Shown piece by piece: positions 15,153 through 64,000 of a DNA stretch of 64,000 nucleotides. The position numbers were made by a program, and so were the translations under genes. Position 1 is the first letter of the stretch, and each line of letters opens with the position of its first letter. This DNA comes from Acidiferrobacteraceae bacterium. Lineage in GTDB: Bacteria > Pseudomonadota > Gammaproteobacteria > Acidiferrobacterales > SZUA-150. The notes beneath the pieces are model-generated. The model made no database searches. It was not told the DNA's origin and saw only the letters and a program-made list of their open reading frames with translations. The stretch is from the NCBI GenBank assembly GCA_003228915.1, contig QIGL01000003.1, positions 4,998 through 68,997 on the forward strand, written 5' to 3'.

Positions 15153-15257
15153 CAGAAAATATAAATCGAATATTATGACTGTGCTTTAGTCAGGGTAGAC
15201 ACAAGCAGAACTTAGCAAAACTTAAACTTAGCTAAACTTAACCATGGAGGGTTAATT

Positions 15258-29167: not shown

Positions 29168-29232
29168 AATATTTTCCAGATAGTGTCTAATTCGAGAGTT
29201 CATGATTGTAGATCGTCAAAGGAATTATTTGT

Positions 29233-29769
29233 ATGGCCGTTCGTCAGATATTAAAAATGGGTGACCCGGAACTCTACCAGTCTTGTGAGCCAGTGCAAGA
29301 ATTTAATACGTCTGTACTGACAGGCATAATTGAAGATATGTTCGATACCATGGCCGAACACAATGGCGTTGGCCTGGCAGCACCACAAATCGGCATTCAA
29401 AAGCGAATAGTAATTTTTGGCCTGGAAAGTAATCCCCGGTACCCGGATGCGGAAACTGTACCTGAAACCATATTGATTAACCCGGTCATTACGCCTGTTG
29501 GTGATTTGCAGGAAGAGGGCTGGGAGGGTTGCCTGAGCATTCCGGGTATGCGCGGCCTGGTTTCCAGGTATAGCAAAATTAAATATAGCGGATTGTCACC
29601 CGCAGGAAAAAATATAGCGCGTGAAGTTGAAGGTTTTCATGCCCGGGTAGTACAACATGAGTGCGATCATCTGGACGGAATACTTTATCCACTCAGGATA
29701 AGGGATATGAGAAATTTTGGTTATGAAGAGGCCTTGTCTCAGTCTGATACAGACGAGCCTGAAATCTAG
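29233..29769 (+). CDS. def: Peptide deformylase
   Basis: 178 aa with '[10 protein letters not shown]', 'EGCLSIPG' and 'HECDHLDG' metal-site motifs. Confidence 0.93.
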
Positions 29770-29810
29770 CACAGTTTCCGGGCCAGGCTAAAGGTAGCCC
29801 GAATAAGCTT

Positions 29811-32800
29811 TTAATCAGACTTTAAATATTCAATTACTTCTGAAATTTTTATAATCCTGTCGTTAATGGACGGCATTTCGTCAATCAAACGCAGTTTGTC
29901 TGGTCCTTCAAGCCTGAATTTCTTTGGTTGCGACTGCAAAAGCTGAATAATTCTGGATGAGTCAACACTGGGGTGGCTCTCAAATTCAAAACGCGCACCT
30001 TTGGCGTTGATATCAATTTTTCGGATTCCGATTGCAGAGGCAAGTAATTTCAGTTGCGTCACCTTGAACAGGAGCAGCCCTTCTTCTGGTAACAAGCCGA
30101 AACGGTCGATAATTTCTTCTTTCAGTAATTTCAGCGCTTCCGGATTTTTTGCATTGGCAACACGTTTGTAAAGCACCAGGCGTATATGAACGTCAGGCAG
30201 GTAGGCGTCAGGAAATAATGTAGGCGCATGAATATTTATTTCGGTGCCACTATGGGTGTGGGTATCAATTTCCAGTTGCCCACCCGCCTTGAGTGTTTCT
30301 ATGGCACGATTTAATAATTCTGAGTAAAGTGTAAACCCTATTTCATTTATCTCACCGCTTTGTTGTTCGCCCAGAATTTCTCCGGCACCCCTGATTTCGA
30401 GATCGTTCGAGGCCAGGGCAAAACCTGCCCCCAGATCCTCCAGTGCACTGATGGCGTCCAGGCGTTTGCGGGCATCAGCGGTGATGCTTTTTCGGGATGG
30501 AATCATCAGGTAGGCATAGGCTCGATGATGCGATCTGCCAACACGTCCGCGAAGTTGATGCAATTGTGCCAATCCGAATTTATCGGCACGATGAATAATG
30601 ATTGTGTTCGCAGAGGGCACGTCGATCCCGGATTCAATGATCGTAGTACATAACAGGACATTAAAGCGCTGGTGATAAAAATCCAGCATGACATTTTCCA
30701 GTTGGCGCTCAGGCATTTGGCCGTGGGCAATACGGATATTTGCCTCGGGTACCAACTCAGCCAGATCACGTTCTGTTTTTTGCATAGTCCTGACTTCGTT
30801 ATGCAGGATGTATACTTGTCCACCGCGCCGTATTTCCCGGATGCAAGCTTCTCTTATCAGGGCGTTATTATTTTCATAAACAAATGTTTTTACGGACAGG
30901 CGTTCTTCCGGAGCTGTTGCGATAATAGAAATATCCCGCATACCTGACAAGGCCATATTCAGCGTGCGTGGTATCGGCGTGGCCGTGAGCGTCAATATGT
31001 CAACAGTGGCGCGCATTGATTTCAGTTTTTCCTTGTGCCTGACACCAAAACGATGCTCTTCATCAACCACAATCAGGCCAATCGCTTTAAATTTAATATC
31101 AGGCTGTAGTAACCTGTGGGTACCAATGACAATATCCGCTTTACCATTGGTTATGTTTTTTATTGTTTGTTCAATTTCTTTTTTTGTTTTAAAGCGCGAC
31201 AACAGTTCAATGTTTACGGCTTCGTCTGAAAACCTGTCAAGAAAATTTTGATAATGTTGCTGTGCCAGTAAAGTCGTCGGAACCAGTATTGCTACCTGTT
31301 TTCCGGAATTAACAGCCGCAAATGTTGCGCGAAGTGCCACCTCTGTTTTACCAAATCCAACATCGCCACAAACCAGCCTGTCCATTGGTTTGGGTTGGCA
31401 CATATCTGCCAGGACATCTTCTATTGCTTTTTCCTGGTCAGGTGTTTCCTCGAACGGGAAAAGCTGTTTAAAATGATCATAGGCTACCGAGTCGATTTTG
31501 CACTGGTGGCCAATGCCCGCACTTCGTTTCGCCTGGACATCAAGTAATTCCACCGCGGCATCATGGGCTTTTTTCTGGGCTCTTCTTTTAGCCTTTTCCC
31601 AGGCTTCACCGCCAAGTTTGTGCAGTGGTGTGCTATCAGGATTAATGCCGGTGTATCTGCTGACAAGGTGTAGTGATACCACCGGGATATAGAGCTTGTC
31701 GCCACCAGCATATGCAAGCGTTAAAAACTCTGTCAAACCGTCACCCACGTCCATGGATTGTAATCCGAGATAACGACCAATACCGTGGTCCTCGTGGACA
31801 ACGGGATCGCCGGATTTAAGCTCAGCCAGGTTTCGGATAATAACGTCAGGATCACGGGCTGTTTCTGAACGTCTTCTCTTTTGCGATGCGCGGGCACCAT
31901 ACAATTGGGCCTCACAAATAATCGTAATATTCGGATTATCAAGTTCCAGTCCTTTTTCCAGCTCCCCGGTTGTCAGCCCAACTTTGCAAGCATCACCTAT
32001 GAAACCATGCCAGTGATCAAAAACTTCGACATCAATTTTATTTGCCTTTAAGAGTGATCTTAGGGTTTCCCGGCGACCCGTGGTTTCAGCGACAATTAAA
32101 ATTCTTTTACCTGATTTTTTTATAAAATTAAATAACTGCTGATAGGGATTGTCTGAATGGGCATCCACCTGTAGTTGTGGTGGCGGTAAAGAATCAAAAC
32201 GGGATAGTCCGGCGCTTTCAAAACCGGGAATATTAATTGTCTCTGACTCATTGGCTTGAAAATCCAGTAAAGCAATGCGCGGCCAATGTGAAATTTCTGC
32301 GAAAAAACGATCTGCATCAAGAAACAGGCATTCTGGTTTCAGGACAGGCTTTTCCCGAAATAACTTTCGTTCAGCATAACGTTCAGCAACCTCCGATTGA
32401 AAATCCCTGGCGAGGTGATAAGTCGTTTCCGTAACAACAACCAATGATTTTTTTGGCAGGTAATCAAAAATGGACTCCAGTTGTTCGAAATAGAGTGGCA
32501 GATAGTATTCAATGCCTGGCGGCATCAGGCCGTTGCTGACGTCACGGTAAAGTGAATTTTTCTGGGGATCGCCTTCGAAACGACTCCTGAATCGTTGCCT
32601 GAAATTATTGATACCCACTTCCGAGGTCGGAAATTCACGGGCAGGCAATAAACGTATTGATTTTAGCTGGTTGCCTGAACGCTGTGTGGCCGGATCAAAT
32701 AACCGTATTGACTCAAGCTCGTCGCCAAACAAATCGAGCCTGAAAGGTTGTTTGCTGCCCATGGGGAACAGGTCGACCAGTCCGCCTCGAACTGCAAACT

Positions 32801-37070: not shown

Positions 37071-37116
37071 TGCGCATACGTTTGTTGGTGTTCATTCTTT
37101 AAATACACCCAATACT

Positions 37117-37980
37117 TTAATATCCCCAATACTTTTCAAGCATTTTTGACTGACCTGAATATATTTTTGCGTTAGCCGGATCAAATTGTGAGAAGCCTAT
37201 TTCTTTTAACATTTTTTGACCATCCGGTGATTTATTTGCAGTAATAAGCGCGTTCCTTATTTTTGCCACTGTGCTGGCGCTCATATTCGGGGAAGCAGAG
37301 AGTGCAATATGTGGTGCTGGCTCTGTTACCATTACCACAGATATGTCATTGCCTTCCGCCATTGTCCTCGAGACAAGTGGTGTTGGAATGATAGCTGCAA
37401 AAACATCTTTGTTGAGCAATAGTTTGATACCTTTGTCGGCATTCGCTACTTCTACAATTATAGGTTGACGCATCGGGTTTGGAAATAACGCATCGAGTCT
37501 TGCCGCACCAATACTTGGAGAACCTAGTGTTGCAATTCTTTTGCCAACCAGTTCTGACGGATCAAAGATAAAATTCTCCGCTAAAACAATCAGGCTGTAA
37601 CTGACGCTGTCCGGGATTTTTGCCAGCACTTTAAAACCATATTTTTTACTACGATAGTCAGTGAAATGTGCTGCATCCAGTATCAGGTCATAACTTTTAG
37701 CGCGCCTGACAGTATCCCAGTAGGCCATGAAGTTTGGCATGGTTTTTACGACTACCGTTTTGCCTGTAATTTTAGATAAATATTCAGCCAGTGGCTTGAA
37801 CGCTTTTTTGGTTTTAGCTTCCGAAAGAACTGGCTGAATGGCAAGTTCCAGTATATCGCCATCTGCATAGGCTGAAGCGGTTTGGATTCCACTTGCAAGC
37901 AAGACAATCGATATAGCGGTGCTTAGGATAATCCTGGGCAGGTTGCCAACTTTGTTTGTTGCACATTTCGAATACGACAT
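37117..37980 (-). CDS. PhnD-family periplasmic substrate-binding protein (orphan; no permease or ATPase adjacent)
   Basis: 287 aa with a signal/anchor segment. The type-2 periplasmic-binding-protein pattern ('LELAIQPVLS...FKPLAEYL...') resembles phosphonate-type ABC binding proteins. Confidence 0.7.
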   Translation of the reverse strand: MSYSKCATNKVGNLPRIILSTAISIVLLASGIQTASAYADGDILELAIQPVLSEAKTKKAFKPLAEYLSKITGKTVVVKTMPNFMAYWDTVRRAKSYDLILDAAHFTDYRSKKYGFKVLAKIPDSVSYSLIVLAENFIFDPSELVGKRIATLGSPSIGAARLDALFPNPMRQPIIVEVANADKGIKLLLNKDVFAAIIPTPLVSRTMAEGNDISVVMVTEPAPHIALSASPNMSASTVAKIRNALITANKSPDGQKMLKEIGFSQFDPANAKIYSGQSKMLEKYWGY

Positions 37981-40221: not shown

Positions 40222-40301
40222 GGTTTGTATCTTAATGTGAAAGTCTCAGACAGATTCTATTTAGCTTGATTTTGTTTAATTAGATTTTATTTGTTAAGTT
40301 T

Positions 40302-41285
<984 letters not shown>

Positions 41286-46603: not shown

Positions 46604-46652
46604 GTGATAAAGAACAAAAATAGATACTCTTAAGGAATTTAAAGGTTAACGT

Positions 46653-49433: not shown

Positions 49434-49523
49434 GGAGAGGTGGCAGAGTGGTCGAATGCGGCGGTCTTGAAAACCGTTGAGGGTTTATCCCCTCCCAGGG
49501 TTCGAATCCCTGCCTCTCCGCCA
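49434..49523 (+). tRNA. tRNA-Ser (anticodon UGA), type II with a long variable arm, CCA encoded
   Basis: The acceptor stem is GGAGAGG/CCTCTCC. The anticodon stem-loop is GCGGT-CTTGAAA-ACCGT, the variable arm is GAGGG...CCCTC, and the T-arm is CAGGG-TTCGAAT-CCCTG. The 3' end is G-CCA. Confidence 0.95.
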
Positions 49524-49530
49524 TTAATAT

Positions 49531-49555
49531 AAAAAGGGGCTTTGCGCCCCTTTTT
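49531..49555 (+). terminator. Palindromic terminator hairpin after tRNA-Ser
   Basis: The sequence is AAAAAGGGGC-tttgc-GCCCCTTTTT, with a 5-bp GC stem and A/T arms on both sides. Confidence 0.75.
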
Positions 49556-49556
49556 A

Positions 49557-49939
49557 TATTTATTGTCTGTGATGTGGCTTCGAACCACACACCGGGTGAG
49601 AATCTGCCACACAGGATGTGCAAATGCCGTGGAGCACATGGAAGTGCGGGAACGGCCCTATGGGCATGGCAAGGATTGTTCCAGACAATCCTTTTGCACT
49701 AGAACCGCCTTTGGCGTTTCATCAAGTACTTCCTGCGCTACGCTCCGGTCGCATTCCCACCCACTGTAGAATCCCTTCGGGCTTCATTCAGCATTTCCTC
49801 GCTTTGCTCAGGTCATCCCTGGTGGTCAGATGCCCAGGTGCCGCGAGCACAGGGACGACATACATGGACGTATAAGTGTCGCGGGAGACAGGAAGTCGGG
49901 AGCGACTGGCAGGAGCGGCCTGCCTCAATATTAGTAGGA
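49557..49939 (+). other. Unclassified GC-rich, hairpin-dense intergenic element (candidate structured ncRNA or insertion remnant)
   Basis: My hand count over 49561-49920 gives about 56% G+C, against AT-rich flanks. No credible ORF is present. There are several perfect stems (for example AAGGATTGT/ACAATCCTT at 49671-49693, and GGCAGG/CCTGCC). The element ends at a plus-strand terminator. Confidence 0.4.
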
Positions 49940-49961
49940 GGGGCCTTGCGCCCCTTTTTTT
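49940..49961 (+). terminator. Plus-strand rho-independent terminator (near-copy of the tRNA-Ser terminator)
   Basis: The hairpin GGGGC-cttgc-GCCCC (49940-49954) is followed by T7 (49955-49961). The T-run is present only in the plus orientation. Confidence 0.7.
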
Positions 49962-52857: not shown

Positions 52858-54261
52858 ATGAAATATTTCCCTATATTCTTACGACTGGAAAATAAACCCT
52901 GTCTGGTGGTTGGTGGCGGTGAAATTGCCCATCGCAAGGTCGAGCTACTTAAACGTGCCGGCGCCGCTGTTACAGTTGTGGCACCGGATTTATGTAAACA
53001 AATGTCAGCTTTGACCGCGTCGGATGAGATTAGCCATATTATTGGTGAGTTTACCGAGGATCAGGTTGCTGGCAACGTATTAGTCATTGCCGCGACGAAT
53101 AACCGGGCGGTGAATGCATTGGTTGCCAGCGCTGCCGACAAACTGAGCATACCTGTCAACGTGGTTGATACGCCTGACTTGTGCCAGTTTGTTATGCCCT
53201 CAATTGTTGATCGTTCACCTATTGTTATAGCCATATCCAGTGGCGGTACTTCGCCGGTTTTGGCCAGGTTAATTCGTGCCAAGCTGGAGTCAACCATACC
53301 TGCTGCTTATGGCAGGCTTGCTGGTTTGGCCAAGGAATATCGGGACAAGGTAAAGCAAACATTTACCAGCATCAACGAACGCAGGATTTTCTGGGAAAAA
53401 ACTCTGCAAGGTCGGGTGGCTGAACTTGTTTTTTCAGGACAGGAACAACAAGCTAAAAATGAGCTGGAAAAAGATTTAAAAAGAAAAAAAGGTGATACCG
53501 AAGTTGGTGAAGTTTATTTAGTCGGTGGCGGCCCTGGCGATCCGGATTTATTAACTTTTCGTGCCTTGCGACTAATGCAGCAAGCAGACGTCATTGTCCA
53601 TGATCGACTGGTGTCACCGGAAGTGCTTGATTTGGTCAGGCGTGATGCCGTAAAAATTTATGCTGGCAAGGAAAAAGACAAACATGCCATACCCCAGGAC
53701 AAAATTAACACGCTGTTGGTGAAACTGGCAAAAGAAGGCAAGCGAGTTTGCCGATTAAAAGGTGGCGATCCATTTATTTTTGGTCGTGGCGGTGAAGAAA
53801 TTGAATTGCTGGCGAAGGAGGGTATTCCATTTCAGGTGGTGCCCGGTATTACCGCCGCAGCCGGTTGTGCTTCTTACTCCGGGATTCCCTTGACTCACAG
53901 GGATTATTCACAATCCGTTGCTTTCGTCACAGGCCATCTAAAAGACGGTAACTTTAACTTAAACTGGGATGGTATTGCCAAGCCTAACCAAACGCTGGTT
54001 ATCTATATGGGCCTGGTGGGAATTGACGCGTTATGCCAGGAATTAATATCACACGGCCTGGTTAAGAACACACCGGTAGCGTTGGTGCAGCAAGGCACAA
54101 CACGTCACCAAAGAGTCATCGTCGGTGATTTGGAAACCATGCCGGACATGGTCAAAAAGAAAAGAGTAAAAGCGCCAACGCTTATTATTGTAGGGGAAGT
54201 GGTGAAGTTGCGTGAAAGTCTGAACTGGTTTCATGCAGAGCAAGAGCAGGAAAATTACTAG
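52858..54261 (+). CDS. cysG: Siroheme synthase (uroporphyrinogen-III methyltransferase / precorrin-2 dehydrogenase / ferrochelatase)
   Basis: 467 aa. The N-terminal domain has 'FPIFL.L....CLVVGGGEIA.RK'. The C-terminal SUMT domain has 'VYLVGGGPGDPDLLT' and 'RLKGGDPFIFGRGGEE'. Confidence 0.95.
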   Translation: MKYFPIFLRLENKPCLVVGGGEIAHRKVELLKRAGAAVTVVAPDLCKQMSALTASDEISHIIGEFTEDQVAGNVLVIAATNNRAVNALVASAADKLSIPVNVVDTPDLCQFVMPSIVDRSPIVIAISSGGTSPVLARLIRAKLESTIPAAYGRLAGLAKEYRDKVKQTFTSINERRIFWEKTLQGRVAELVFSGQEQQAKNELEKDLKRKKGDTEVGEVYLVGGGPGDPDLLTFRALRLMQQADVIVHDRLVSPEVLDLVRRDAVKIYAGKEKDKHAIPQDKINTLLVKLAKEGKRVCRLKGGDPFIFGRGGEEIELLAKEGIPFQVVPGITAAAGCASYSGIPLTHRDYSQSVAFVTGHLKDGNFNLNWDGIAKPNQTLVIYMGLVGIDALCQELISHGLVKNTPVALVQQGTTRHQRVIVGDLETMPDMVKKKRVKAPTLIIVGEVVKLRESLNWFHAEQEQENY

Positions 54262-54275
54262 TTTATTGACTCATT

Positions 54276-54446
54276 GGTGGGCGATGCCCACCCTCCACCC
54301 TACAAAAGTTGTTATCCCACCACCTCGTCATTCCCGGGGCAACGGGAATCCAAGTGTTTTAATGAGCAGTTTGTTAGTTATGTACTGGATACCCGCTTCC
54401 GCGGGATGACGGAAGCTTGTCATTCCGGCCCAATAGTCAGGAATGA
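54276..54446. repeat. Cluster of REP-like palindromes in the cysG/response-regulator intergenic region
   Basis: Four palindromes are present. They are GGTGGGC-gat-GCCCACC (54276-54292), ATTCCCG-gggcaa-CGGGAAT (54330-54349), CCCGC-ttcc-GCGGG (54392-54405) and TCATTCC...GGAATGA (54420-54446). The first unit plus 'CGTCATTCC' matches 47937-47966. Confidence 0.7.
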
Positions 54447-54457
54447 TACTTTTTTGC

Positions 54458-55123
54458 TTAGCTCTTTTTTTCTTTTCGATTAATACCGTTCTCAACGGCA
54501 ATGACTGCTGCCTCGACACGGGAGTGCACGCCCAGTTTTCGTAGAATCGATTTAACATGAAGTTTAACGGTGCCATCGGTAATATCCAGTTCACGGGCAA
54601 TGACTTTGTTACTTTGACCATCGGCAATATGACTTATAATTTCACTTTCACGGGGCGTCAGGTTGTCTAATCCCTTGTGCCTGTCAGCAGGCTTATCCAG
54701 CTCATCTGTTTTACCTTGAACAATCCTGGTAAGCGATCCAATGAGTTCTTTGGCTACAACGTTATCACCAGATAATGCCGAATTTAATGCCGGTACCAGG
54801 TCTTCCGGATCCATGTCTTTCAGCAAATAACCCTGGGCACCACTACGCAAGGCTTCTGCCAGGTCTTGTTCTTCGCGACTCATGGTTAACATCAAAACAG
54901 GTGTTTCAATTTTTTCAGACCTGAGTGCTTGCAGTGTTTCCGGGCCAGTCATGCCCGGCATTTTCATATCCAGTAAAATAATATCGGGCTTTAATTCTCT
55001 GGCCTTTTCTATGCCTTCCTGACCACTGCCCACTGAGGCGGCAATATCGATACCTCGACTCTGTAGTAAAGTTTCTATGCCTTTGCGCACCAGGGCGTGA
55101 TCGTCAATAAGAAGTACGCGCAT
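54458..55123 (-). CDS. NarL/FixJ-family response regulator (REC + LuxR-type HTH)
   Basis: 221 aa with 'RVLLIDDH', the phospho-acceptor context 'PDIILLDMKMPGM', and a C-terminal 'LTPRESEIISHIADGQSNKVIARELDITDGTVKLHVKSILRKLG'. Confidence 0.92.
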   Translation of the reverse strand: MRVLLIDDHALVRKGIETLLQSRGIDIAASVGSGQEGIEKARELKPDIILLDMKMPGMTGPETLQALRSEKIETPVLMLTMSREEQDLAEALRSGAQGYLLKDMDPEDLVPALNSALSGDNVVAKELIGSLTRIVQGKTDELDKPADRHKGLDNLTPRESEIISHIADGQSNKVIARELDITDGTVKLHVKSILRKLGVHSRVEAAVIAVENGINRKEKKS

Positions 55124-56705
55124 TGGAAATTTCTCGAATTAGATTAGTTGAATTATTTTGCTTATGGATAGCAGGAAAACCTAAAGAAATTTGCGTGCCT
55201 TCTCCAGGCTCGCTTTCTATTGATAGCGTGCCATCTAATCTTTGCGCTCGTTCCTTCATAATTGAAATTCCAATGTTTTCACCGGGCCGTGAAGCATGTC
55301 CTGCTGTGTCAGTTTCTATACCATGTCCGTCATCTTCAATCAGGATTATAAACTCTTCATCAAGACCGTATTTTAATATTATTCTGACATTAGATGCATT
55401 ACTGTGTTTTCTAACATTCGTCAGTGCTTCCTGAATAATTCTGTAAACTTGCACCTCCTGAACTGGAGAAAAGCTGTATTGATTCCACTCGTTTTGTAAA
55501 AAAACCGATATTTTTGTTTCTTCTCTGAATTTCAAGACCAGGTCTTTGATGGCAGGAACAAGTCCACGATCATCGATACGTGATTTATAGTTTCCCAGCA
55601 CATCGCGCAAATCTTCGTGGGCTTCATCGATTGCTGATTTTAGTCTTCTTACTTCGTTTTGAGCACCGCGGATATCTTTTTTGTATAATATCTCACCCAG
55701 CATTTTAATTTGCAGGCGCATGCTGACCAGTGATTGCGCCAGGGAGTCGTGTAACTCGTTGCCTATCATATTTCGTTCTTCCATAATGGCCAGTCGACGT
55801 TCATTATCATCAAGCCGGGATTTTTCAATCGCCAGCCCAAGATGTTTACCGATACTATTTAATAAATCCCTGACATCTCTTCCCAGTTCATCACTTGATC
55901 GTTTCAGGAAAAGATTATAGATCCCGAGAATTTTTTCCCGGTACTGGAGCGGGACAACGACTAATTCGGCACAGCCATCAACAAGCAACTCTTGTCCAAT
56001 AATTTTGTTACACGTTTCGATGCCTGTTTGAATACCAATGCCACCGTTTTTTGTAATATTGCCGCAGAGGCATAGATCAATATCCATGCAGTTTTCCTGT
56101 TTTATTATTTCACTGGAAAAACCCCGGCTCGCGATTAATAAGGTAGAATTATTTTCAGTCAATAACCTGACGCTTGCAGCCTTGGCATCTACCAGCACCA
56201 TTAGTGTATCAAGGAATTGTTCAAGCAATTCATCGAGATTTCTGGCAGTACTCAAATCAGTGGCAATATCATATAAAATTTCCAGGGACCTGCTCTTGGC
56301 AGCGATATGATCGGTTTTTTCCTGGACCCTAATATCCATTTCTTCAATTAATCCGGACACCTCGTGGGTCAAATTATTAACATCGGAAATAACGCCCTTA
56401 AAAGCAGTTTTTTCAGATAAGGGGATGTCTGTATGGAGATCGCCTTTACGTAAACGATTGGACCATTTTTGGAGTTCTGTAAACGGTAGCAATAATTTTT
56501 TAATCACGAAATAATAAAGACTGGCTACCAGGATGAGCATTAGCAAACCAATGCTTATATAAACAGCTGGTGTACCAGTTATCATAGCCTGACCGCCACT
56601 AAACAAGAGCAAAATTGCAAGGGCAGCAATCCCCAAAACCAGGGTTGTAATAATTACCAGGGGATGGAAGATATTTAGTTTGATAGCGGCCAGTTTCATT
56701 ACCAA
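55104..56705 (-). CDS. Sensor histidine kinase (2 TM, HAMP, Cys-rich GAF, HisKA_3, HATPase)
   Basis: 533 aa. Two TM helices are separated by only about 12 residues. A HAMP-like segment follows, then a GAF-like region containing 'CMDIDLCLCGN...C...C'. It has the 'IGNELHDSLAQSL' H-box and 'DDGHGI', 'GIS.M.ERA' ATPase motifs. It overlaps the regulator gene by 20 nt. Confidence 0.9.
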   Translation of the reverse strand: MVMKLAAIKLNIFHPLVIITTLVLGIAALAILLLFSGGQAMITGTPAVYISIGLLMLILVASLYYFVIKKLLLPFTELQKWSNRLRKGDLHTDIPLSEKTAFKGVISDVNNLTHEVSGLIEEMDIRVQEKTDHIAAKSRSLEILYDIATDLSTARNLDELLEQFLDTLMVLVDAKAASVRLLTENNSTLLIASRGFSSEIIKQENCMDIDLCLCGNITKNGGIGIQTGIETCNKIIGQELLVDGCAELVVVPLQYREKILGIYNLFLKRSSDELGRDVRDLLNSIGKHLGLAIEKSRLDDNERRLAIMEERNMIGNELHDSLAQSLVSMRLQIKMLGEILYKKDIRGAQNEVRRLKSAIDEAHEDLRDVLGNYKSRIDDRGLVPAIKDLVLKFREETKISVFLQNEWNQYSFSPVQEVQVYRIIQEALTNVRKHSNASNVRIILKYGLDEEFIILIEDDGHGIETDTAGHASRPGENIGISIMKERAQRLDGTLSIESEPGEGTQISLGFPAIHKQNNSTNLIREISNARTSY

Positions 56706-56859
56706 AAGTGAATCAGGATCGGGGCGCCACTATAGTTGTTTAGCTAACAGGGGTATAGAGGTGAAAAAGTACTGACTTATAAGTTATTGTTTAATAATAA
56801 CATTATACCATAGTACGAGAATGAACTAGCTTCCACGGCGCCAATCTACAGCTTTGAAA

Positions 56860-57171
56860 CTATTTTTCGGGGGCTATGTAATTCGGATCATTTGGGTTCA
56901 TAAAAATAAACTGGGGTTTGTTTTCTTCAACCTCCACGTAATCTATAGTCATATCTTTCAAAAGATCCAGGATAGAAGGTGAAAAAATGATGGTAACACC
57001 ATTTTCCTGCACCTGGACATCATCGTCCGTGGTCTCGTCAAAGCCCATACCGTATTCAAAAGCATTATTGCCATCTTTTTTTACTGCCAACCTCAGGGAC
57101 ATGCCGTCCATGCCACCTTCTTTTGCCGAGGCTAGAATCTGGTCGGCGGCTTTTTTAGATATTTTAATCAT
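56860..57171 (-). CDS. dsrR: IscA/HesB-like protein lacking the cluster-binding cysteines (DsrR)
   Basis: 103 aa with the A-type-carrier fold pattern ('I.IS..AA..I........G..LRL.V...G...F.Y.M.FD') but no Cys residues. It sits directly after dsrN, matching the dsrN-dsrR order of Allochromatium vinosum. Confidence 0.8.
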   Translation of the reverse strand: MIKISKKAADQILASAKEGGMDGMSLRLAVKKDGNNAFEYGMGFDETTDDDVQVQENGVTIIFSPSILDLLKDMTIDYVEVEENKPQFIFMNPNDPNYIAPEK

Positions 57172-58554
57172 AATAACCAGTCCTGTTTTTTAACCCGTGA
57201 AACAAATTCAAGAAATTCGTTAATCCAGGGATTCGATAAAGTATTTCTCTGGTGTGCGTAAGTTGCAATTATATTATTTATCAGAAAACCGTCCTGTTTT
57301 TTGGTAATACCTTTTCCGCGAATAACGTCAAAGCCAAATTTATTATTTGAAGAATTAAACTTTAACTCAGAATAATGAAATTCATGGGGCGGGTTGCTGA
57401 TCAGCCCCCTTAATATTACCATTGATCCATGGATGTTTTTCGTTTTTCTTAAGATAAACATAGCCCCGGCCAACTGGCCTGTCATGCATAACGGAGTAGG
57501 CATCGATGACGCCGAGCATTTCCGAGTAAGCATCATGCCAGTGAATACCATTACTCAAATACATCAGACCACCACATTCGGCATAAACTGGCAGTCCTTT
57601 GTTAATTTTATCCCTTAGCAGGGCTCTCATTGTAGTATTATTTTCGAGCTGTTTCATTCTGCTTTCTGGAAAACCACCACCGATAAACAACCCATCTATT
57701 GGGGCAATCTTTTTATCATTGATAGCGTCAATAAAAATCAGTTTGGCACCAGCCTGTTCAAATGCTTCCAGGTCGTCCTGGTAATAAAAGCCAAATGCTT
57801 CGTCACGCAATATGCCTATCGTAATTCCTGCTGTTTTTTTTGAATCTATATTTGAAAAATTGCTGGTCTCTTCTGTTGTAGATGCAATATTATTTATGCG
57901 CTCGAGATCAATTTGTTTTGTAATATTTTCGGTTATTTTTTTAATCAAGACATTAGCGCTGGCGGTTTCATTGCTGGGGATCAGGCCAAGATGTCTTTCT
58001 ACAATTTCCAGTGCCGGGTCGCGCTGGATGGCACCCAATACGGAAATTTCAGTATATTCCTGCAAGACCCTTCGCAGTTTTTCTTCATGGCGGCTGCCAC
58101 CAACCTTGTTGAGTATCACGCCGGCGATATTTACATCAGGCTCAAATTTCTGAAAACCAAGCAAAAGCGGGGCAACACTACGAGTGATACCCTGGGTATC
58201 AATAACCATAATTACCGGGGTTTTGAGTAATCTTGCGAGGGCTGCGCTACTGTTACTGCCATCAAGGTCAAGTCCATCGGACAAACCCTTATTGCCTTCA
58301 ATGATACTTACGTCAGCGTCAGTACTTTTGGAGTCGAATAAACTTTTTATCTCATCATGGGTCTGGGTAAAAAAATCAAGATTATAACAGTGCCTGCCTG
58401 ATGCCAGTGCCAGCCACATTGGGTCGATATAGTCTGGACCTTTTTTAAAGGGTTGAACTTTGAGGTTATTTTTTCTCAGCGCCGCACACAAACCAAGTGT
58501 GACCGTTGTTTTCCCGGAGGATTTATGGGCTGCGGAAATTAATAAACGTGCCAT
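57168..58554 (-). pseudogene. dsrN: Siroheme amidase-like cobyrinic acid a,c-diamide synthase homologue (DsrN), interrupted by a +1 frameshift at a G5 run
   Basis: ORF 57382..58554 carries the CbiA/CobB N-terminus ('SAAHKSSGKTTVTLGL', 'KKGPDYIDP'). It stops just before the GATase motif. ORF 57168..57551, in another frame, supplies 'HEFHYS...YAHQR...NPW'. The frames meet at CCCCC 57405-57409. Removing one base gives one 461-aa protein. Confidence 0.8.
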
Positions 58555-58557
58555 ACA

Positions 58558-59571
58558 TTAAGCTGCGGCTGAAAGGCGATCCCGGTTCCTGTTTGCCCAT
58601 AATTGATTGGCCAGTGTCTCAGCAGTTGTAAAACTGTCGGCCTTACCAATCATTTTCAGGACAATGGCAGCGGTTCCAATAACGGCAGCTTCGCCATATT
58701 CATTACTACTTTCGTCACGCCAGACTGTGGTCAACTCAGCAGGGTTAAGTGTGCCTGGTTTTACGTGTCTGCGGGCGAACATTGCCGGCCAGGTTTCATC
58801 TGCCAGGTTTTCACCGTGAAGTGTTTTTACCAGGCAGTCCATATCCGGGTTTCTTTCTATTTCTCCACCTTCACCTTTGACTACAGCAGCATGCTTGTGA
58901 TTTAGCAAAAGTGAGGCTTTTTGATGCATAGGGTGGTAAGCCGGGTGGTGAATGCCAGTAATTACATGTTCAGCATCAAATGGATTGAGCAGTCTTGCTA
59001 CCGTGTGGACAGGAGAGCGAAGTCCAATGACAGGTCTGAGATCTATGATTTCCTGAAGTCTGGGCGACATATTTTCCATATCAAGATAGGAAAAACCGGA
59101 AGTTTTTATTTGTTCGGCAGCCTCTTTAAGTGAAGTAGAGACGTCAACTCCAAGCTGCTTCAAAACATCCCTGGTATAAATACGGCCTTCGGTATGGCCA
59201 CTGGCTCCATGCATAAAAATATTAATATTGTTTTCTGCCAGCAATAGCGCGGCCAAAATATACCAGGGCAAGTGTCTTCTTTTGCCAGCGTAAGAAGACC
59301 AGTCAATCTGGATCTCCGGGTGATTCGCCGGAAAATTTTTGTCATCATGCAGTGTTTTTCGGATTGCATTGACAAAACCTGCAACTTCTTCCGGGGTTTC
59401 TTCTTTTACACGCATGAGCGTCAAGATTGCACCGAGCTGTTCGGGCGTTACTTCTCTGGCCATAATCATAGACATGACTGTTTCTGCTTCTGCCATGGAG
59501 AAGTTGCGCGAGCCTTTTCTTCCTTTACCAAGGATTCGGACATATTGTGCAAATGGGTGTTCAGAATTCAC
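58558..59571 (-). CDS. YbiB/TrpD2-like protein (glycosyltransferase family 3 fold without the PRPP-binding GTGGD loop)
   Basis: 337 aa. The N-terminal helical bundle has 'KGRKGSRNFSMAEAETVMSMIMAREVTPEQLGAILTLMRVKEETPEEVAGF'. The 'SSYAGKRRHLPW' segment replaces the TrpD GTGGDG loop, as in E. coli YbiB ('IPSYNGARKQANL'). The comparison is from memory. Confidence 0.7.
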   Translation of the reverse strand: MNSEHPFAQYVRILGKGRKGSRNFSMAEAETVMSMIMAREVTPEQLGAILTLMRVKEETPEEVAGFVNAIRKTLHDDKNFPANHPEIQIDWSSYAGKRRHLPWYILAALLLAENNINIFMHGASGHTEGRIYTRDVLKQLGVDVSTSLKEAAEQIKTSGFSYLDMENMSPRLQEIIDLRPVIGLRSPVHTVARLLNPFDAEHVITGIHHPAYHPMHQKASLLLNHKHAAVVKGEGGEIERNPDMDCLVKTLHGENLADETWPAMFARRHVKPGTLNPAELTTVWRDESSNEYGEAAVIGTAAIVLKMIGKADSFTTAETLANQLWANRNRDRLSAAA

Positions 59572-59808
59572 TGTTTAGGATTCCTTTGGATTTTATTCAA
59601 TGTTTCCTCGCTATGATTTAGAATTTTCTACGAGCTCGTTAAGCACTCTCAAAATTATCCCCGCAGATTCTGGCCGTGCTGTTTTTTATGATTTTATACA
59701 GAGCTATGTCAATTACCTGTTACCTGGCGCAGTCCGAGCGCAGGGCTTTTAGAAGTGATCTGTATTTACGAGAATAGCAGGTTTTGCAAGAGATAAACCT
59801 TAAGGTTT

Positions 59809-61040
59809 TCAGGCCGATGGTGTTGAATGTGGATCAACCACCTCATTGGCAAGACTTTGAGGCAAGAAGGGCAGAATTTTAATTGCAAAAGTTGCCGCTG
59901 CCAGGGCAATGCCGACGCCACCAATTCCGAGAAGAATTTCAGCCGGCGTCGCTGTGTAATTACCAGTTTGGCCGTCACCAAAACTACTGCTCACTTCCAT
60001 GCCAGGGAAGATTTGCAACGGGTATGCCTGACCGCCAATGATAATAACGTACAATTGTGCGAGCCCGCCAAATACAACAAGCAAGCAGCCAAACGATAAC
60101 ATTAGTCGTGATTTATAAAAAGCAGGCACATAAAAAATTAGCAGGGGAAGGAATAAGGCTGCCAATTAGAATTTGGTCAATCCAGAAAACTTTTGTATAG
60201 ATTCCGCCATCGATTAGAATGAACTTCTCAATTCCGCTATGTTCGGCGATATAGAGATTTGTCAAATGATAGACCAACACAAAATAAAGTACTGCAATAA
60301 CGAATATACCGAGTAATTTTCTAAGTCTGTTTACAACTACATCGCCGAGAGGTCTGCCAGTTAAATGGTACGTGGTAATTAAGTACACTAAAAATATTGC
60401 CAGGCCGAATGAAAATGACATAATAATAAACAGGGGCGCCATAATTGCAGCGTCATATGCAGAGCGAGCAACAAGAAAACCAAAAATAGAGCCAGTACCA
60501 GTGGTTAAGGTAAGCCGCCAAATGAAAGCGCCTACACCAGCTGCGCGATTATATTTTTTTAAATTATTTTGCATCATAGTCCAGATGTAGATGCCGACCA
60601 CAGCAATAAAACCTGAGTACAAAATCATATTCCAGGCAAATATGGATTTAAAATTATAAATTGTCATCGAGATGATCAGTCTGTCTGGCCTGCCAAGATC
60701 CAGTACGAGTATTGCCAGGCCACCAACTAGCAAAGTAATTGCCAGCAGCGCTGACAGTCGTGCCAGCGGTTTATACATTACTTTTCCAAACACAGATCCG
60801 ATTGAGGCAACATTTAATGGCAACATTTAATGCGCCAGAGGCGGCCACGATCAAAAATACGGCGAATACATGAGGTATGCCCCAGACGATTTGGTTGTTC
60901 ATGCCGGTTACATAGTGGCCGTTATGCTCCATATAGTATGTTGAGCCAAGCGCAGCAGCAATAAAAACACCAAATATTCCCAGCAGGGTCCAGTAACCGA
61001 AACTGGTGCCTTTGATCATGTCATAAGTTAGTGACTTCAT
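59809..61040 (-). pseudogene. dsrP: NrfD/PsrC-like integral membrane subunit DsrP, split into three ORFs by a 13-bp tandem duplication and a second +1 shift
   Basis: Three consecutive minus-strand ORFs (61040->60771, 60826->60113, 60165->59809) are all polytopic and NrfD-like. Deleting one copy of the 13-mer at 60806-60831 joins '...AASGALNVA' to 'SIGSVFGK...'. A second shift lies within 60116-60165. The repaired length is about 405 aa. Confidence 0.8.
60806..60831. repeat. Perfect 13-bp tandem duplication GGCAACATTTAAT x2 inside dsrP
   Basis: This is read directly: 60806-60818 and 60819-60831 are identical. Confidence 0.95.
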
Positions 61041-61086: not shown

Positions 61087-61818
61087 CTACAAGCCCTGGT
61101 AACGTACACCAGTATTTAAATTTAAATCGCTGCGCAGTTGTCTGCTAGGTTCTGTCCTGCGCCGCCTGGAGATTTCAGTTTTTAAATCGTTAAGATCACC
61201 AAACAAGATAGCGTCATTCCCGAGTTCTGTGCAAGCTTCAGCGCATGCAGTATTGTTATCCCCGCGATCGATTTTATGAACACATAGCGTGCAGGACTCA
61301 ACCGTACCTTTACCTCTCGGGACATGGGATTTCTGATCAGTTATATCTTCATGAATAAATGATCGTGCCTTGTAAGGGCAGGCCATCATGCAATAACGAC
61401 AGCCAATACAAATATGTTTATCTACCAGGACAATACCGTCTGCTCTCTTGAATGAAGCGCCAGTTGGGCAAACATCAACACAAGGGGGTTCTTCACAGTG
61501 CTGGCACATCACAGGTAAAAAGTGTGTATACCCGGTTTCGGGGTCTTTGGCCGTGACCTTTCGAATCCACTGGGCATCAGTTTCAGGCCGATTATTACTG
61601 GTTATGCCGTGTTCTGTATGGCATGCATCAACACAGTATGAGCAGCCCTCAGCACATTTAGCGCTGTCAATCAGCAAGCCCCATCTCTTGGCTGTAGATG
61701 CAGCTTCTTCAGGACTGCGAGCTTGCGCTAGTTCAACCAGACGAATACCCGGTGCGATTGCAGCACCCGTTACAGCTGCTGCACCAGCCTGCATGAATTT
61801 GCGACGACTGATACTCAT
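61087..61818 (-). CDS. dsrO: Periplasmic 4Fe-4S ferredoxin-like subunit DsrO (Tat-exported)
   Basis: 243 aa with the twin-arginine signal 'SISRRKFMQAGAAA'. It has multiple CxxCxxCxxxCP-type cluster motifs ('CIGCRYCMMACP', 'CQHCEEPPCVDVCP'). Confidence 0.88.
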   Translation of the reverse strand: MSISRRKFMQAGAAAVTGAAIAPGIRLVELAQARSPEEAASTAKRWGLLIDSAKCAEGCSYCVDACHTEHGITSNNRPETDAQWIRKVTAKDPETGYTHFLPVMCQHCEEPPCVDVCPTGASFKRADGIVLVDKHICIGCRYCMMACPYKARSFIHEDITDQKSHVPRGKGTVESCTLCVHKIDRGDNNTACAEACTELGNDAILFGDLNDLKTEISRRRRTEPSRQLRSDLNLNTGVRYQGL

Positions 61819-62252
61819 TGGTGTGGGTTCCCTTTGTTATCGTCTTTATTACTGACCGAAGTTTTTACATCGCGTTTGTCAGTGTGACAACTGAAGCAAT
61901 CAATCTTAACTGCAGCGTAGGTGTGACAGCTTTCACAAAAACCTTCTTTTCCGAGCACGCTGTTTGTATTCTCATCGGCATGGCAGTTGACACAATTTTT
62001 TAAACTGTATTGTTTGGTCCTGATTCCATCGTACACGGTCAAATCACGCTGGTGCAGGATTTTGTTCATGTGATTGCGGCGCATTTCGTCTGTATCATCA
62101 ACGCACTGACCGGGCTTAGTAATTTTAATAATTGGCAGCGGTGTCCGAATAGTATCCGACTTGTCAGTATTTCCAGCATTGGCAGCAACAGAAATACCCG
62201 TTGACGTAAAGCCAAACAATAGTACGAAAAGTATTAGAAATCTTGTCATCAT
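61815..62252 (-). CDS. dsrJ: Triheme cytochrome c DsrJ
   Basis: 145 aa with a signal peptide and three CxxCH motifs (CVNCH, CESCH, CFSCH), plus an upstream conserved Cys ('GQCVDD'). It overlaps dsrO by 4 nt. Confidence 0.88.
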   Translation of the reverse strand: MMTRFLILFVLLFGFTSTGISVAANAGNTDKSDTIRTPLPIIKITKPGQCVDDTDEMRRNHMNKILHQRDLTVYDGIRTKQYSLKNCVNCHADENTNSVLGKEGFCESCHTYAAVKIDCFSCHTDKRDVKTSVSNKDDNKGNPHQ

Positions 62253-62280: not shown

Positions 62281-64000
62281 TTAATGATCGCCGAGCCCCA
62301 TTTTGATATAACCAGTAGGGCAGACGTCAGCACAAATATGACAGCCAATACAACGATCATAATCCGTATAAACATAACGACCCATGGTCGAATGTTCTTT
62401 TGGTGTACGCTTTACAGCTTCCTGCGGACAATAAATAACGCAGTTATCACACTCAAAACACATACCACAGCTCATACATCGTTTAGCTTCGGCAATTGTT
62501 GCTTCTTCACTCAGGCCGGCAACGCGTTCTTCGAAGTGACCCAGAACCTGGCTTGAATCAGGGACAGTCTCAACACGTTTATTGCGATCTTCATGTTCAA
62601 AATGACCAAGGAATAATTCAGTCGATGCAACAATTTCGGCATTACCACGATCTTCGTAGTTATGGACGGCATAATCATCATCTATAGTGCCACGCAAACC
62701 ACGATCGATAGCACGCTCGTCATCTGGACCAGCTGGTTTGTATTCATCTGGCGTGTGATTTGTCTCACGTAATTTATCGAGTAAATCAAAATGGTGAACA
62801 TCGACCTTGGGTCGTTTGACCATTTCTTCATGTTTCAGATAATGATCAATGCTGATTGCTGCAATTGATGCCTGACCAATTACGGTCGTTAACAAATGTG
62901 GGCGGATAATATCACCACAGGCAAAAAATCCTGGTTTGTCAGGCATTTGATAATGTTTGTCGGCATCCATCAGGCCGCGTTCGTTACCAAATCCTTCCAG
63001 GCCTTCCATATTACCTGTTTGGCCAATAGCTGACACGATAAGGTCGCACTCGATATCGAATTCAGATCCTTCTACTACCACTGCTTTGCCTGATGAGTAA
63101 TCCATTTTAGCAACACGGAGTGCAGTTGCACGGCCATCATCGTCAATGATGACTTCAACCGGGCTAAGTGAGCCCTGAATTTCGACACCTTCTCGTGTGG
63201 CATCGTCAATTTCGTGTTTAGCTGCAGTCATGCCTTCAATTGGCTGGCGAGAAATCAGCATGACATCAGCGCCTTCACGTGAAGCAATTTCAGCTACATC
63301 ATGGGCGGTGTGTCCAAGGACGATGTTTTCGGGACGGTCTTTATCATGGATGTTAGTGATGCGGCCAAGTCGTCGAGCAACAGATACGACGTCGATAGAG
63401 GTATCACCACCACCGACGACTACAACTTTGCCGGCAACAGTTTTAAGTCGGCCTTCATTAAATGCAGACAGGAATGCAACACCTGAGACACAGTTTGTGA
63501 CTTTGTCTGCATTAGGAATAGGTAACGCGCGTCCGGATTGGGCGCCGATTGCAAATAACACGGCATCAAAATCTTTTTCCAGCTGTTTAATTGAAATATC
63601 TTTACCGATACGTGTATTCATGCGTTTCTCAACACCCATATCAATAATGCGATCCATTTCACCATCGAGCACGTCTCGAGGAGTACGATAACCAGGAATG
63701 CCATAACGCATCATGCCACCCAGGTCTTTATGGTCATCAAACAAAGTAACACCATGGCCCATACGACGAAGCTGGTAAGCAGCAGCAAGTCCGGCAGGAC
63801 CGCCACCAATAACGGCAACTTTTTTACCTGATTCTTTACCGGCAGTGAATGCCAGTTTATTAGTCAGAGCCCAATCGCCAATAAATTGTTCAACCGAATT
63901 AATGCCAACAAAGTCTTCTACTTCGTTGCGATTACAACCGTCTTCACAGGGAGCAGGGCAAACACGACCCATTACTGATGGAAATGGGTTGGCGTCAGTT
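62281..64000 (-). CDS. dsrL: DsrL (GltD-like NAD(P)H:acceptor oxidoreductase with a C-terminal 2x[4Fe-4S] ferredoxin domain); 5' end lies outside the window
   Basis: The frame stays open upstream of the M at 63972 to the window edge ('..TDANPFPSVMGRVCPAPCEDGCN'). It has FAD/NAD folds ('VAVIGGGPAGLAAA', 'VVVVGGGDTSID'). The C-terminus has 'CMSCGMCFECDNCVIYCP' and 'CIGCHICADVCP'. Confidence 0.88.
   Translation of the reverse strand, partial: TDANPFPSVMGRVCPAPCEDGCNRNEVEDFVGINSVEQFIGDWALTNKLAFTAGKESGKKVAVIGGGPAGLAAAYQLRRMGHGVTLFDDHKDLGGMMRYGIPGYRTPRDVLDGEMDRIIDMGVEKRMNTRIGKDISIKQLEKDFDAVLFAIGAQSGRALPIPNADKVTNCVSGVAFLSAFNEGRLKTVAGKVVVVGGGDTSIDVVSVARRLGRITNIHDKDRPENIVLGHTAHDVAEIASREGADVMLISRQPIEGMTAAKHEIDDATREGVEIQGSLSPVEVIIDDDGRATALRVAKMDYSSGKAVVVEGSEFDIECDLIVSAIGQTGNMEGLEGFGNERGLMDADKHYQMPDKPGFFACGDIIRPHLLTTVIGQASIAAISIDHYLKHEEMVKRPKVDVHHFDLLDKLRETNHTPDEYKPAGPDDERAIDRGLRGTIDDDYAVHNYEDRGNAEIVASTELFLGHFEHEDRNKRVETVPDSSQVLGHFEERVAGLSEEATIAEAKRCMSCGMCFECDNCVIYCPQEAVKRTPKEHSTMGRYVYTDYDRCIGCHICADVCPTGYIKMGLGDH

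What the first reader, a model, noticed from the sequence alone, without database searches (positions are those of the whole stretch)
60806..60831. Perfect 13-bp tandem duplication frameshifts dsrP
GGCAACATTTAAT occurs twice back to back, at 60806-60818 and 60819-60831. On the coding (minus) strand this reads ATTAAATGTTGCC x2.

With both copies the frame runs '...GALNVAIKCCLNRICVWKSNV*'. With one copy removed it reads '...GALNVASIGSVFGKVMYKPLAR...', which is exactly the start of the next ORF.

A 13-nt duplication is not a typical homopolymer base-calling error. It looks like a real replication-slippage or microhomology event. Such tandem duplications can also revert by precise excision, so it could act as a reversible on/off lesion in a sulfur-oxidation gene.
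Basis: seen in the sequence. Interest (0 to 1): 0.7.

Follow-up and report, generated by a model that had tools for sequence, protein, structure and literature searches.

The report
Private 13-nt duplication breaking dsrP
A perfect back-to-back 13-base duplication does break the sulfur-oxidation gene dsrP, but it is one of three frameshifts in dsrP and dsrN seen only in this assembly, so it is a dead gene copy or an assembly flaw, not an on/off switch.

Summary
It is the only perfect tandem repeat with a unit of 10 nt or more in the window (0 of 200 simulations gave one of 13 nt or more).

The nearby dsrN has a third, an extra G at 57386. Excising the 13-mer alone therefore cannot restore DsrP.

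All three insertions, plus an intergenic 7-nt tandem duplication at 54288-54301, are private to this window. They are absent from every one of eight public runs wherever its contigs cover the site, from two contigs of an independent assembly of the near-identical genotype, from a JGI metagenome scan, and from 80 orthologous loci.

The rest of the window looks accurate: no other split gene, and all other indels are intergenic.

Two readings remain. At about 0.5, these are genuine, very recent loss-of-function insertions in this genotype. At about 0.4, they are a local assembly or consensus artefact in a strain-heterogeneous stretch. Source reads were not available to decide between them.

The reversible-switch idea is not supported. 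The finding is ordinary and of low interest.

The parts
60819..60831 (-). 13-nt unit, copy read first on the coding strand (ATTAAATGTTGCC). It contains the ATG at 60826-60824, which is out of frame in the normal gene and becomes the apparent start of the 237-aa middle ORF.
60806..60818 (-). 13-nt unit, second copy on the coding strand. The insertion falls after codon 74, inside the conserved motif SGALNVA|SI at the end of predicted helix 2.
60771..61040 (-). dsrP fragment 1: 74 native residues plus 15 out-of-frame residues, then a stop.
60113..60826 (-). dsrP fragment 2 (native residues about 72-293), ended by the second frameshift.
60146..60153 (-). Second lesion in dsrP: a 4-nt tandem duplication (GGAAGGAA on +, TTCCTTCC on the coding strand). 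All relatives have one GGAA. It lies in about predicted helix 8.
59809..60145 (-). dsrP fragment 3 (native C-terminal ~111 residues, in the third reading frame, plus the stop codon).
57168..58554 (-). dsrN (CobB-type a,c-diamide synthase homologue), split into 390-aa and 127-aa ORFs.
57386..57389 (-). G-run of 4 where every other dataset has 3. This +1 frameshift in dsrN lies just before the conserved HEFHYSE motif.
54288..54301 (.). Intergenic 7-nt perfect tandem duplication (CCACCCT x2) on the 3' arm of the hairpin GGTGGGC-GAT-GCCCACC downstream of cysG. L083 and X5 have one copy.
61087..61818 (-). dsrO, intact (context).
   Evidence: NCBIfam DsrO 305 bits, cut-off 200
61815..62252 (-). dsrJ, intact (context).
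62281..64000 (-). dsrL, which runs off the window end (context).
58558..59571 (-). Glycosyl-transferase-family-3-like gene between dsrP and dsrN, intact.
56860..57171 (-). dsrR-like IscA-family gene, intact.

Best explanation
The doubled 13-mer is a genuine, very recent insertion mutation, a de novo short tandem duplication made during DNA synthesis or repair, in the genotype this contig represents. It shifts the dsrP frame after codon 74 of 404, leaving only two of about ten membrane helices, so no functional DsrP quinone-module subunit can be made. It does not stand alone. A 4-nt tandem duplication breaks dsrP again at about codon 293, and a +1 G breaks dsrN. Together they mark dsrP and dsrN as freshly inactivated genes in this lineage.

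Shown: the sequence, the frames, the privacy of all lesions, and the intact state in all relatives. [quoted passage not shown] The lesion is not a working switch, because single reversion cannot restore the gene.
For: (1) Base-level accuracy of the window is otherwise high. It is 91% coding, no other gene is split, and long core genes are intact: gyrA 876 aa, mfd 1164 aa, ftsK 771 aa, rpsA, serS, cysG.

(2) Against the closest genotype (X1/X2, about 0.2-0.5% SNPs), the five indels outside 54-61 kb are all intergenic. Taking the eight indels seen against X1/X2, P(at least 5 of 8 intergenic if random) = 2.6e-4.

(3) Homopolymer-length differences hit 3 of 34 intergenic runs of 6 nt or more and 0 of 156 coding runs (p = 0.005). 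That is the signature of polymorphism filtered by selection, not technical error.

(4) All three coding indels fall in two functionally linked genes, 2.6 kb of 58 kb coding (P = 9e-5 if random). Pathway-specific relaxation of selection would give that pattern.

(5) Established knowledge: a 13-nt perfect duplication is not a base-calling error type, and de Bruijn graph assemblers cannot create junction k-mers that no read contains.

(6) Short tandem-repeat indels do segregate naturally in this population. X1 carries an 11-nt imperfect tandem insertion at 46640 that the window lacks.
Against: (1) None of the four window-specific insertions is seen anywhere else. Eight runs, contigs L081 and L083 with 100% identical flanks, a JGI metagenome scan and junction-specific 31-mers all give only the short alleles.

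(2) After mending, the ORF is fully open and all 6 dsrP SNPs against X1/X2 are synonymous. Three frameshifts with at most one accompanying non-synonymous change fit gradual neutral decay poorly. By my estimate the joint probability is at most about 2e-3, assuming a typical indel:substitution ratio of about 1:10.

(3) All four insertions are tandem duplications clustered in 6.5 kb, while all five indels elsewhere have the window shorter (Fisher p = 0.008).

(4) The duplicated units have 0-1 nt of flanking microhomology and no hairpin (z about 0). Simple slipped-strand models do not favour that.

(5) The 4-nt and 7-nt sites coincide exactly with branch points of independent assembly graphs.
Confidence: 0.5

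Rival explanations
1. Local assembly or consensus artefact. The contig was built across a strain-heterogeneous, multi-species-conserved stretch (dsr genes) by joining, gap-closing, re-assembly or polishing. Short unmerged overlaps or mis-polished sites were written out as tandem duplications of 1, 4, 7 and 13 nt. The organism's dsrP and dsrN are intact.
For: One mechanism would explain all four insertions, including the intergenic one. All are tandem duplications with 0-1 nt microhomology. They are confined to 54.3-60.8 kb, while indels elsewhere have the opposite polarity (p = 0.008). The first copy of the 4-nt unit ends exactly where X1 and X2 contigs end (60149). The first copy of the 7-nt unit ends exactly where X1 and X2 contigs stop matching (54294). 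The stretch contains several high-depth k-mer islands shared with other genomes, for example 60873-60935, 57374-57510 and 54305-54358. The same haplotype with 100% identical flanks exists with the short alleles in an independent assembly. No dataset shows the long alleles. The mended genes show purifying selection, with 14 of 16 SNPs synonymous.
Against: The rest of the 64 kb shows no sign of error-prone assembly. The 13-nt site and the G-run lie inside unbroken Logan contigs of X1/X2, not at graph breaks. k-mer graph assemblers cannot emit junctions absent from reads, and common scaffolders insert Ns rather than concatenate (my knowledge, not tested). The assembler and read type of the source are unknown.
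Confidence: 0.38
2. Reversible phase-variation switch. The 13-nt duplication turns dsrP off and precise excision turns it back on, as in pneumococcal cap3A.
For: A perfect in-ORF tandem duplication is the off-state architecture of the cap3A system (Waite et al. 2001, via PMC11163986). Tandem duplications in phcA were among the mechanisms in Ralstonia variants that revert in planta (Poussier et al. 2003, via bioRxiv 10.1101/2023.04.27.538605). Excision of one copy restores the local frame. A second, different duplication in the same gene recalls the variety of duplications described for cap3A (my recollection of Waite et al. 2001; that detail was not verified here).
Against: On this molecule dsrP carries a second frameshift and dsrN a third, so excision of the 13-mer does not restore function. 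No population shows both alleles. The site is not a repeat-prone tract in any of 80 orthologues. Two copies of a 13-mer with no flanking homology revert only at ordinary slippage rates (inference).
Confidence: 0.05
3. Footprints of staggered-break repair. A transposable element inserted and later excised, or another staggered double-strand break was filled in and re-ligated, leaving the target-site duplication behind.
For: Fill-in of staggered cuts gives perfect tandem duplications without microhomology, as seen at all three multi-base sites. The 7-nt site is a structural-variation hot spot where X1/X2 carry different sequence.
Against: Three different duplication lengths (4, 7, 13 nt) would need three different elements. 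X1/X2's variant at the 7-nt site shows no flanking copy of CCACCCT. No transposase turned up among the window genes I annotated, and no IS-like repeat was noticed. Clean footprints are unusual in bacteria (my knowledge).
Confidence: 0.03

Closest known systems
DsrP, the NrfD/PsrC-type membrane subunit of the DsrMKJOP complex of Dsr-dependent sulfur oxidisers (studied in Allochromatium vinosum)
   Same: The read-through protein is a 404-aa NrfD-family protein with about ten hydrophobic helices. It is encoded directly after dsrJ and dsrO and before dsrN and dsrR. It is 61-95% identical to full-length proteins of Acidiferrobacterales and other gammaproteobacterial sulfur oxidisers that sources name NrfD/PsrC, HmeB or DsrP.
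   Different: Here the gene is broken into three frames. It scores only 56 bits on NCBI's DsrP equivalog model (cut-off 350), whose description is of the sulfate-reduction complex. A GT3-family gene sits between dsrP and dsrN, unlike the canonical dsrABEFHCMKLJOPNRS order (PMC4205035 abstract).
Phase variation by spontaneous in-ORF tandem duplication: Streptococcus pneumoniae cap3A (Waite et al. 2001). Tandem duplications in Ralstonia solanacearum phcA (Poussier et al. 2003) are a related case.
   Same: A perfect tandem duplication inside an ORF causes a frameshift, and precise loss of one copy restores the local frame.
   Different: The defining behaviour, co-existing on and off alleles and restoration of function on reversion, is not seen. 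Only one allele appears per dataset, and two further frameshifts on the same molecule block restoration.
Ordinary young pseudogene made by short insertion mutations
   Same: There are multiple disabling frameshifts. All relatives are intact and the flanking genes are intact.
   Different: There are almost no accompanying substitutions. All lesions are insertions of one type, clustered with an intergenic one. That is unusual for gradual decay.
Small duplications at contig joins or locally mis-assembled sites in metagenome-assembled genomes
   Same: The tandem duplications have variable short lengths, no microhomology, and cluster in a strain-variable stretch. Two are at graph branch points and none is supported by other datasets.
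   Different: There are no Ns or other join marks. Two of the four sites lie inside unbroken independent contigs. The source pipeline is unknown, so this is a resemblance, not a demonstration.

Membership tests
DsrP (DsrMKJOP subunit, NrfD/PsrC family) | NrfD/PsrC-family polytopic membrane protein | tested here: met
   Pfam PF03916 NrfD 162.8 bits against a cut-off of 25.8 for the read-through protein. About ten hydrophobic 19-mers.
DsrP (DsrMKJOP subunit, NrfD/PsrC family) | Encoded next to dsrJ and dsrO within a dsr cluster | tested here: met
   The order is dsrL-dsrJ-dsrO-dsrP-(GT3-like)-dsrN-dsrR. DsrO scores 305 bits against a cut-off of 200. dsrK lies upstream of dsrL in L081.
DsrP (DsrMKJOP subunit, NrfD/PsrC family) | Passes the curated NCBIfam DsrP equivalog cut-off | tested here: not met
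   NF045798 scores 56 bits against a cut-off of 350. The model's description is of the sulfate-reduction complex. The score still makes DsrP the top-scoring family, so I read this as model scope rather than exclusion.
DsrP (DsrMKJOP subunit, NrfD/PsrC family) | Uninterrupted ORF of about 400 aa, as in functional members | tested here: not met
   Three frames in the window. 78 of 80 orthologous loci are uninterrupted over residues 60-330. The closest 120 database relatives are about 390-420 aa.
Tandem-duplication phase-variation switch (cap3A type) | Perfect tandem duplication inside the ORF that shifts the frame | tested here: met
Tandem-duplication phase-variation switch (cap3A type) | Loss of one copy restores a functional ORF | tested here: not met
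   With one copy removed, the ORF still ends about 20 codons past the 4-nt duplication, near codon 310 of 404. dsrN is also frameshifted.
Tandem-duplication phase-variation switch (cap3A type) | 1-copy and 2-copy alleles co-exist and interconvert in one population | tested here: inconclusive
   Only 1-copy alleles appear in 8 runs and 2 contigs. No run holds junction words. However, only contigs were available, and contigs drop rare variants. The source reads were not available.
Recent pseudogene | Disabling lesions absent from close relatives | tested here: met
Recent pseudogene | Lesions present in the organism's DNA (read support) | not testable with these tools
   No run holds the window's exact genotype (best share of 31-mers 0.85-0.91). 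All runs are served as contigs only.
Assembly artefact | Junction unsupported by the reads used for the assembly | not testable with these tools
   As above. Indirect indications for it are, and against it.

The most novel reading that the evidence does not exclude
The lesions are real and non-accidental. A hydrothermal-vent Acidiferrobacterales lineage has knocked out the DsrP quinone-module subunit and the sirohaem amidase DsrN by several independent hits, while keeping dsrL, dsrJ, dsrO and dsrR intact. That would mean either selection for shedding part of the oxidative Dsr pathway, or a sulfur oxidiser running on a DsrMK-only core. The latter is known for some sulfate reducers but contrary to the A. 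vinosum result that the complex is essential. A variant of this reading is that the four clustered, microhomology-free tandem duplications record a single localised mutagenic repair tract.
Probability: 0.1. Interest if true: 0.5.

Novelty: new member of a known kind. Interest (0 to 1): 0.2.

Why it matters
If real, this is a snapshot of the first steps of gene loss in the oxidative Dsr pathway of an uncultured vent sulfur oxidiser. It is also a caution for metabolic inference: this genome would be scored 'dsr-positive' yet could not make DsrP or full-length DsrN.

If it is an artefact, it matters practically. It shows how a clean-looking MAG contig can carry a local cluster of small tandem duplications that mimic pseudogenes, and that such calls need read-level confirmation before biological interpretation.

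Either way, no new mechanism is revealed.

Tried and rejected
- **Ancestral in-frame insertion:** rejected. 0 of 80 orthologous loci have a gap at the site.
- **Compensating frameshifts:** rejected. 13 + 4 = 17 nt, so three different frames are used.
- **Programmed ribosomal frameshifting or re-initiation at the ATG inside the duplication:** no slippery or stimulatory motif is evident in the sequence, and the downstream ORF is broken again by the 4-nt lesion. Rejected by inspection only.
- **General error-prone (long-read-like) assembly:** rejected. 0 of 156 coding homopolymers of 6 nt or more differ against 3 of 34 intergenic ones, and all other genes are intact.
- **Chimeric k-mer path between the two alleles at the 4-nt site:** worked out by hand. 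It would need k of 6 or less. Rejected.
- **Hairpin- or microhomology-driven slippage hot spot:** no structure (z about 0) and only 0-1 nt of microhomology.
- **Transposon footprint at the 7-nt site:** X1/X2's variant has no flanking repeat.
- **Extra relaxed-selection signal in dsrN:** the two non-synonymous differences polarise one to each lineage. Uninformative.
- **Searches that led nowhere:** exact-product look-ups of the broken ORFs and of the GT3-like protein, junction-word run searches, a search for the source run, and a PDB sequence search with DsrP.

Full report
**The observation.** The + strand reads GGCAACATTTAAT at 60806-60818 and again at 60819-60831. Tandem Repeats Finder gives period 13, 2.1 copies, 100% identity. 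With two copies the frame runs ...GALNVAIKCCLNRICVWKSNV*. With one copy deleted it runs ...GALNVASIGSVFGKVMYKPLARL... into the next ORF. This is the only perfect tandem duplication with a unit of 10 nt or more in the 64 kb, and none of 200 Markov simulations produced one of 13 nt or more. The 13-mer is otherwise unique in the window.

**The gene.** The surrounding minus-strand genes are dsrL (runs off the window), dsrJ, dsrO (NCBIfam equivalog 305 bits, cut-off 200), the broken gene, a glycosyl-transferase-family-3-like gene, a CobB-type amidase (dsrN) and an IscA-like dsrR. A NarQ/NarL-like two-component pair and cysG follow. Read through, the broken gene encodes a 404-aa NrfD-family protein (Pfam 163 bits) with about ten hydrophobic helices. 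It is 61-95% identical to full-length proteins of Acidiferrobacterales and other gammaproteobacterial sulfur oxidisers. It scores below the cut-off of NCBI's DsrP model, whose description is of the sulfate-reduction complex (56 bits against 350). By family, context and orthology, 'dsrP' is the right name. DsrMKJOP is reported as essential for sulfur-globule oxidation in Allochromatium vinosum. The DsrJOP module is absent from many Gram-positive and archaeal sulfate reducers (PMC10861901).

- dsrP is broken twice. Alignment with the orthologues L001 and L002 shows the 13-nt insertion and also a 4-nt insertion. It is a second perfect tandem duplication, GGAAGGAA at 60146-60153. Since 13 + 4 = 17, the gene is spread over three frames, and removing one 13-mer alone still leaves a truncated product.
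- dsrN, about 1.25 kb downstream of dsrP's stop codon, is split by an extra G in a G-run at 57386-57389. Deleting one G gives a 461-aa protein that aligns end to end with orthologues.

**Independent data.** Two runs (X1, X2) hold about 85-91% of the window's 31-mers. By matching contig lengths, they are SRR14803396 and SRR6439367. They are a very close genotype, about 0.2-0.5% SNPs.
- Their contigs lack the 13 nt, the 4 nt and the extra G. So do six further runs from other samples and studies, wherever their contigs cover a site.
- Two contigs of an NCBI metagenome assembly (GCA_006240795.1) carry the same haplotype. L081 has flanks 100% identical for hundreds of bases around the site, with a single 13-mer. 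L083 has a single GGAA and an intact 461-aa dsrN. Together they reconstruct an intact 404-aa DsrP.
- A gapped-pattern scan of JGI metagenome contigs found only the single-copy form.
- 31-mers specific to either doubled junction are in no indexed run.
- None of 80 orthologous loci has a gap at the 13-nt site, which lies in the conserved motif SGALNVASI.

All lesions are therefore private to this assembly. The source reads could not be found, and all runs are available only as contigs, which drop rare variants.

**Is the window's sequence trustworthy in general?** Yes.
- It is 91% coding with no other split gene, and long core genes are intact.
- Five indels against X1/X2 lie outside the dsr stretch, and all are intergenic. 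P(at least 5 of 8 intergenic if random) = 2.6e-4.
- Homopolymer-length differences affect 3 of 34 intergenic runs of 6 nt or more but 0 of 156 coding runs (p = 0.005). That is what selection-filtered polymorphism looks like, not technical error.
- All three coding indels fall in dsrP and dsrN (P about 9e-5 if random).

**What argues against simple 'real pseudogene'.**
- L083 revealed a fourth window-specific insertion, a perfect 7-nt tandem duplication (CCACCCT x2, 54288-54301). It lies on the 3' arm of the hairpin after cysG, at a spot where strains differ structurally.
- All four window-specific insertions (1, 4, 7 and 13 nt) are therefore tandem duplications, and all lie within 6.5 kb. All five indels elsewhere have the window shorter (Fisher p = 0.008).
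- The multi-base units have 0-1 nt of flanking microhomology and no hairpin.
- The first copies of the 4-nt and 7-nt units end exactly at branch points of the X1/X2 assembly graphs. The stretch also contains k-mer islands shared with other genomes.
- The mended genes show purifying selection. 14 of 16 nearby SNPs are synonymous, including all six in dsrP. The two non-synonymous differences in dsrN polarise one to each lineage.
- Three frameshifts with almost no substitutions is a poor fit to gradual neutral decay. My estimate is at most 2e-3, assuming a 1:10 indel:substitution ratio.

**Verdict on mechanism.** As written in this sequence, the duplication is a loss-of-function lesion. The product stops after 74 native residues, two of about ten helices.
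- I give about 0.5 to the reading that it and its companions are genuine, very recent insertion mutations of this genotype, so that dsrP and dsrN are freshly inactivated.
- I give about 0.4 to a local assembly or consensus artefact in a difficult stretch.
- I give about 0.05 to a cap3A-like reversible switch (precedents verified). The other lesions on the same molecule contradict it.
- I give about 0.03 to footprints of staggered-break repair.

The decisive test, mapping the source reads or sizing amplicons from the source DNA, could not be run here.

**Novelty and interest.** A frameshifting short tandem duplication in a gene of a metagenome-derived contig is an ordinary kind of event, or an ordinary kind of error. 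The reversible-switch interpretation that motivated the 0.7 score is not supported. I score interest at 0.2. The residual interest lies in the unexplained clustering of four microhomology-free tandem duplications, and in the small chance that a vent sulfur oxidiser is really dismantling part of its Dsr machinery.

Noticed in passing
window 60146-60153: Second frameshift in dsrP: a perfect 4-nt tandem duplication (GGAAGGAA) that is absent from all eight runs, L083 and the orthologues. X1 and X2 contigs end at 60149, exactly at the end of the first copy.
   Followed up: yes
window 57386-57389 (dsrN, 57168-58554): dsrN is split into 390-aa and 127-aa ORFs by a G-run of 4 where the other datasets have 3. 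L083 encodes an intact 461-aa protein.
   Followed up: yes
window 54288-54301: Intergenic perfect 7-nt tandem duplication (CCACCCT x2) on the 3' arm of the hairpin GGTGGGC-GAT-GCCCACC after cysG. The spacer beyond it differs between strains (L083, X5, X1/X2 all differ).
   Followed up: partly
window 54288-60831 versus the rest: All four window-specific insertions are tandem duplications clustered in 6.5 kb, whereas all five indels elsewhere (8547, 15639, 38879, 46640, 49321) have the window shorter (Fisher p = 0.008). The cause is unresolved: local artefact, relaxed selection plus chance, or a local mutagenic event.
   Followed up: partly
window 46630-46650: In the spacer upstream of serS, X1 carries 11 extra nt that make an imperfect tandem repeat (AAGGAATTTA x2), plus two adjacent SNPs. 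This is a natural short-repeat length polymorphism in the population.
   Followed up: partly
window 58558-59571: A glycosyl-transferase-family-3 / YbiB-like gene (NCBIfam PRK09071, 379 bits) sits between dsrP and dsrN. The same arrangement is present in L001 and L083, and it departs from the canonical dsrABEFHCMKLJOPNRS order.
   Followed up: partly
window 60150-60434: The middle of dsrP is a haplotype mosaic. X2 holds a second allele, about 92% identical over 60120-60334, and X1/X2 carry a different allele at 60368-60434. All differences examined are synonymous.
   Followed up: partly
window 28672-32400: No X1 contig at 97% identity or more, and X2 only from about 30.7 kb, although the genes here are core (CsiV-like, def, mfd). 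This is probably a divergent or recombined segment rather than an island.
   Followed up: no
window 49434-49945: The only tRNA (tRNA-Ser, tga) is followed by a stretch with about 3x depth where X1/X2 contigs 'go back' 123 or 404 nt. That points to repeated or rearranged sequence next to the tRNA.
   Followed up: no
window 15209-15241, 37097-37135, 40285-40317: Three near-perfect intergenic tandem repeats with units of 15-17 nt and about 2.1-2.2 copies (TRF scores 55-59).
   Followed up: no
window 52858-56705: cysG (sirohaem synthase) and a NarQ/NarL-like sensor kinase and response-regulator pair lie directly next to the dsr cluster.
   Followed up: no
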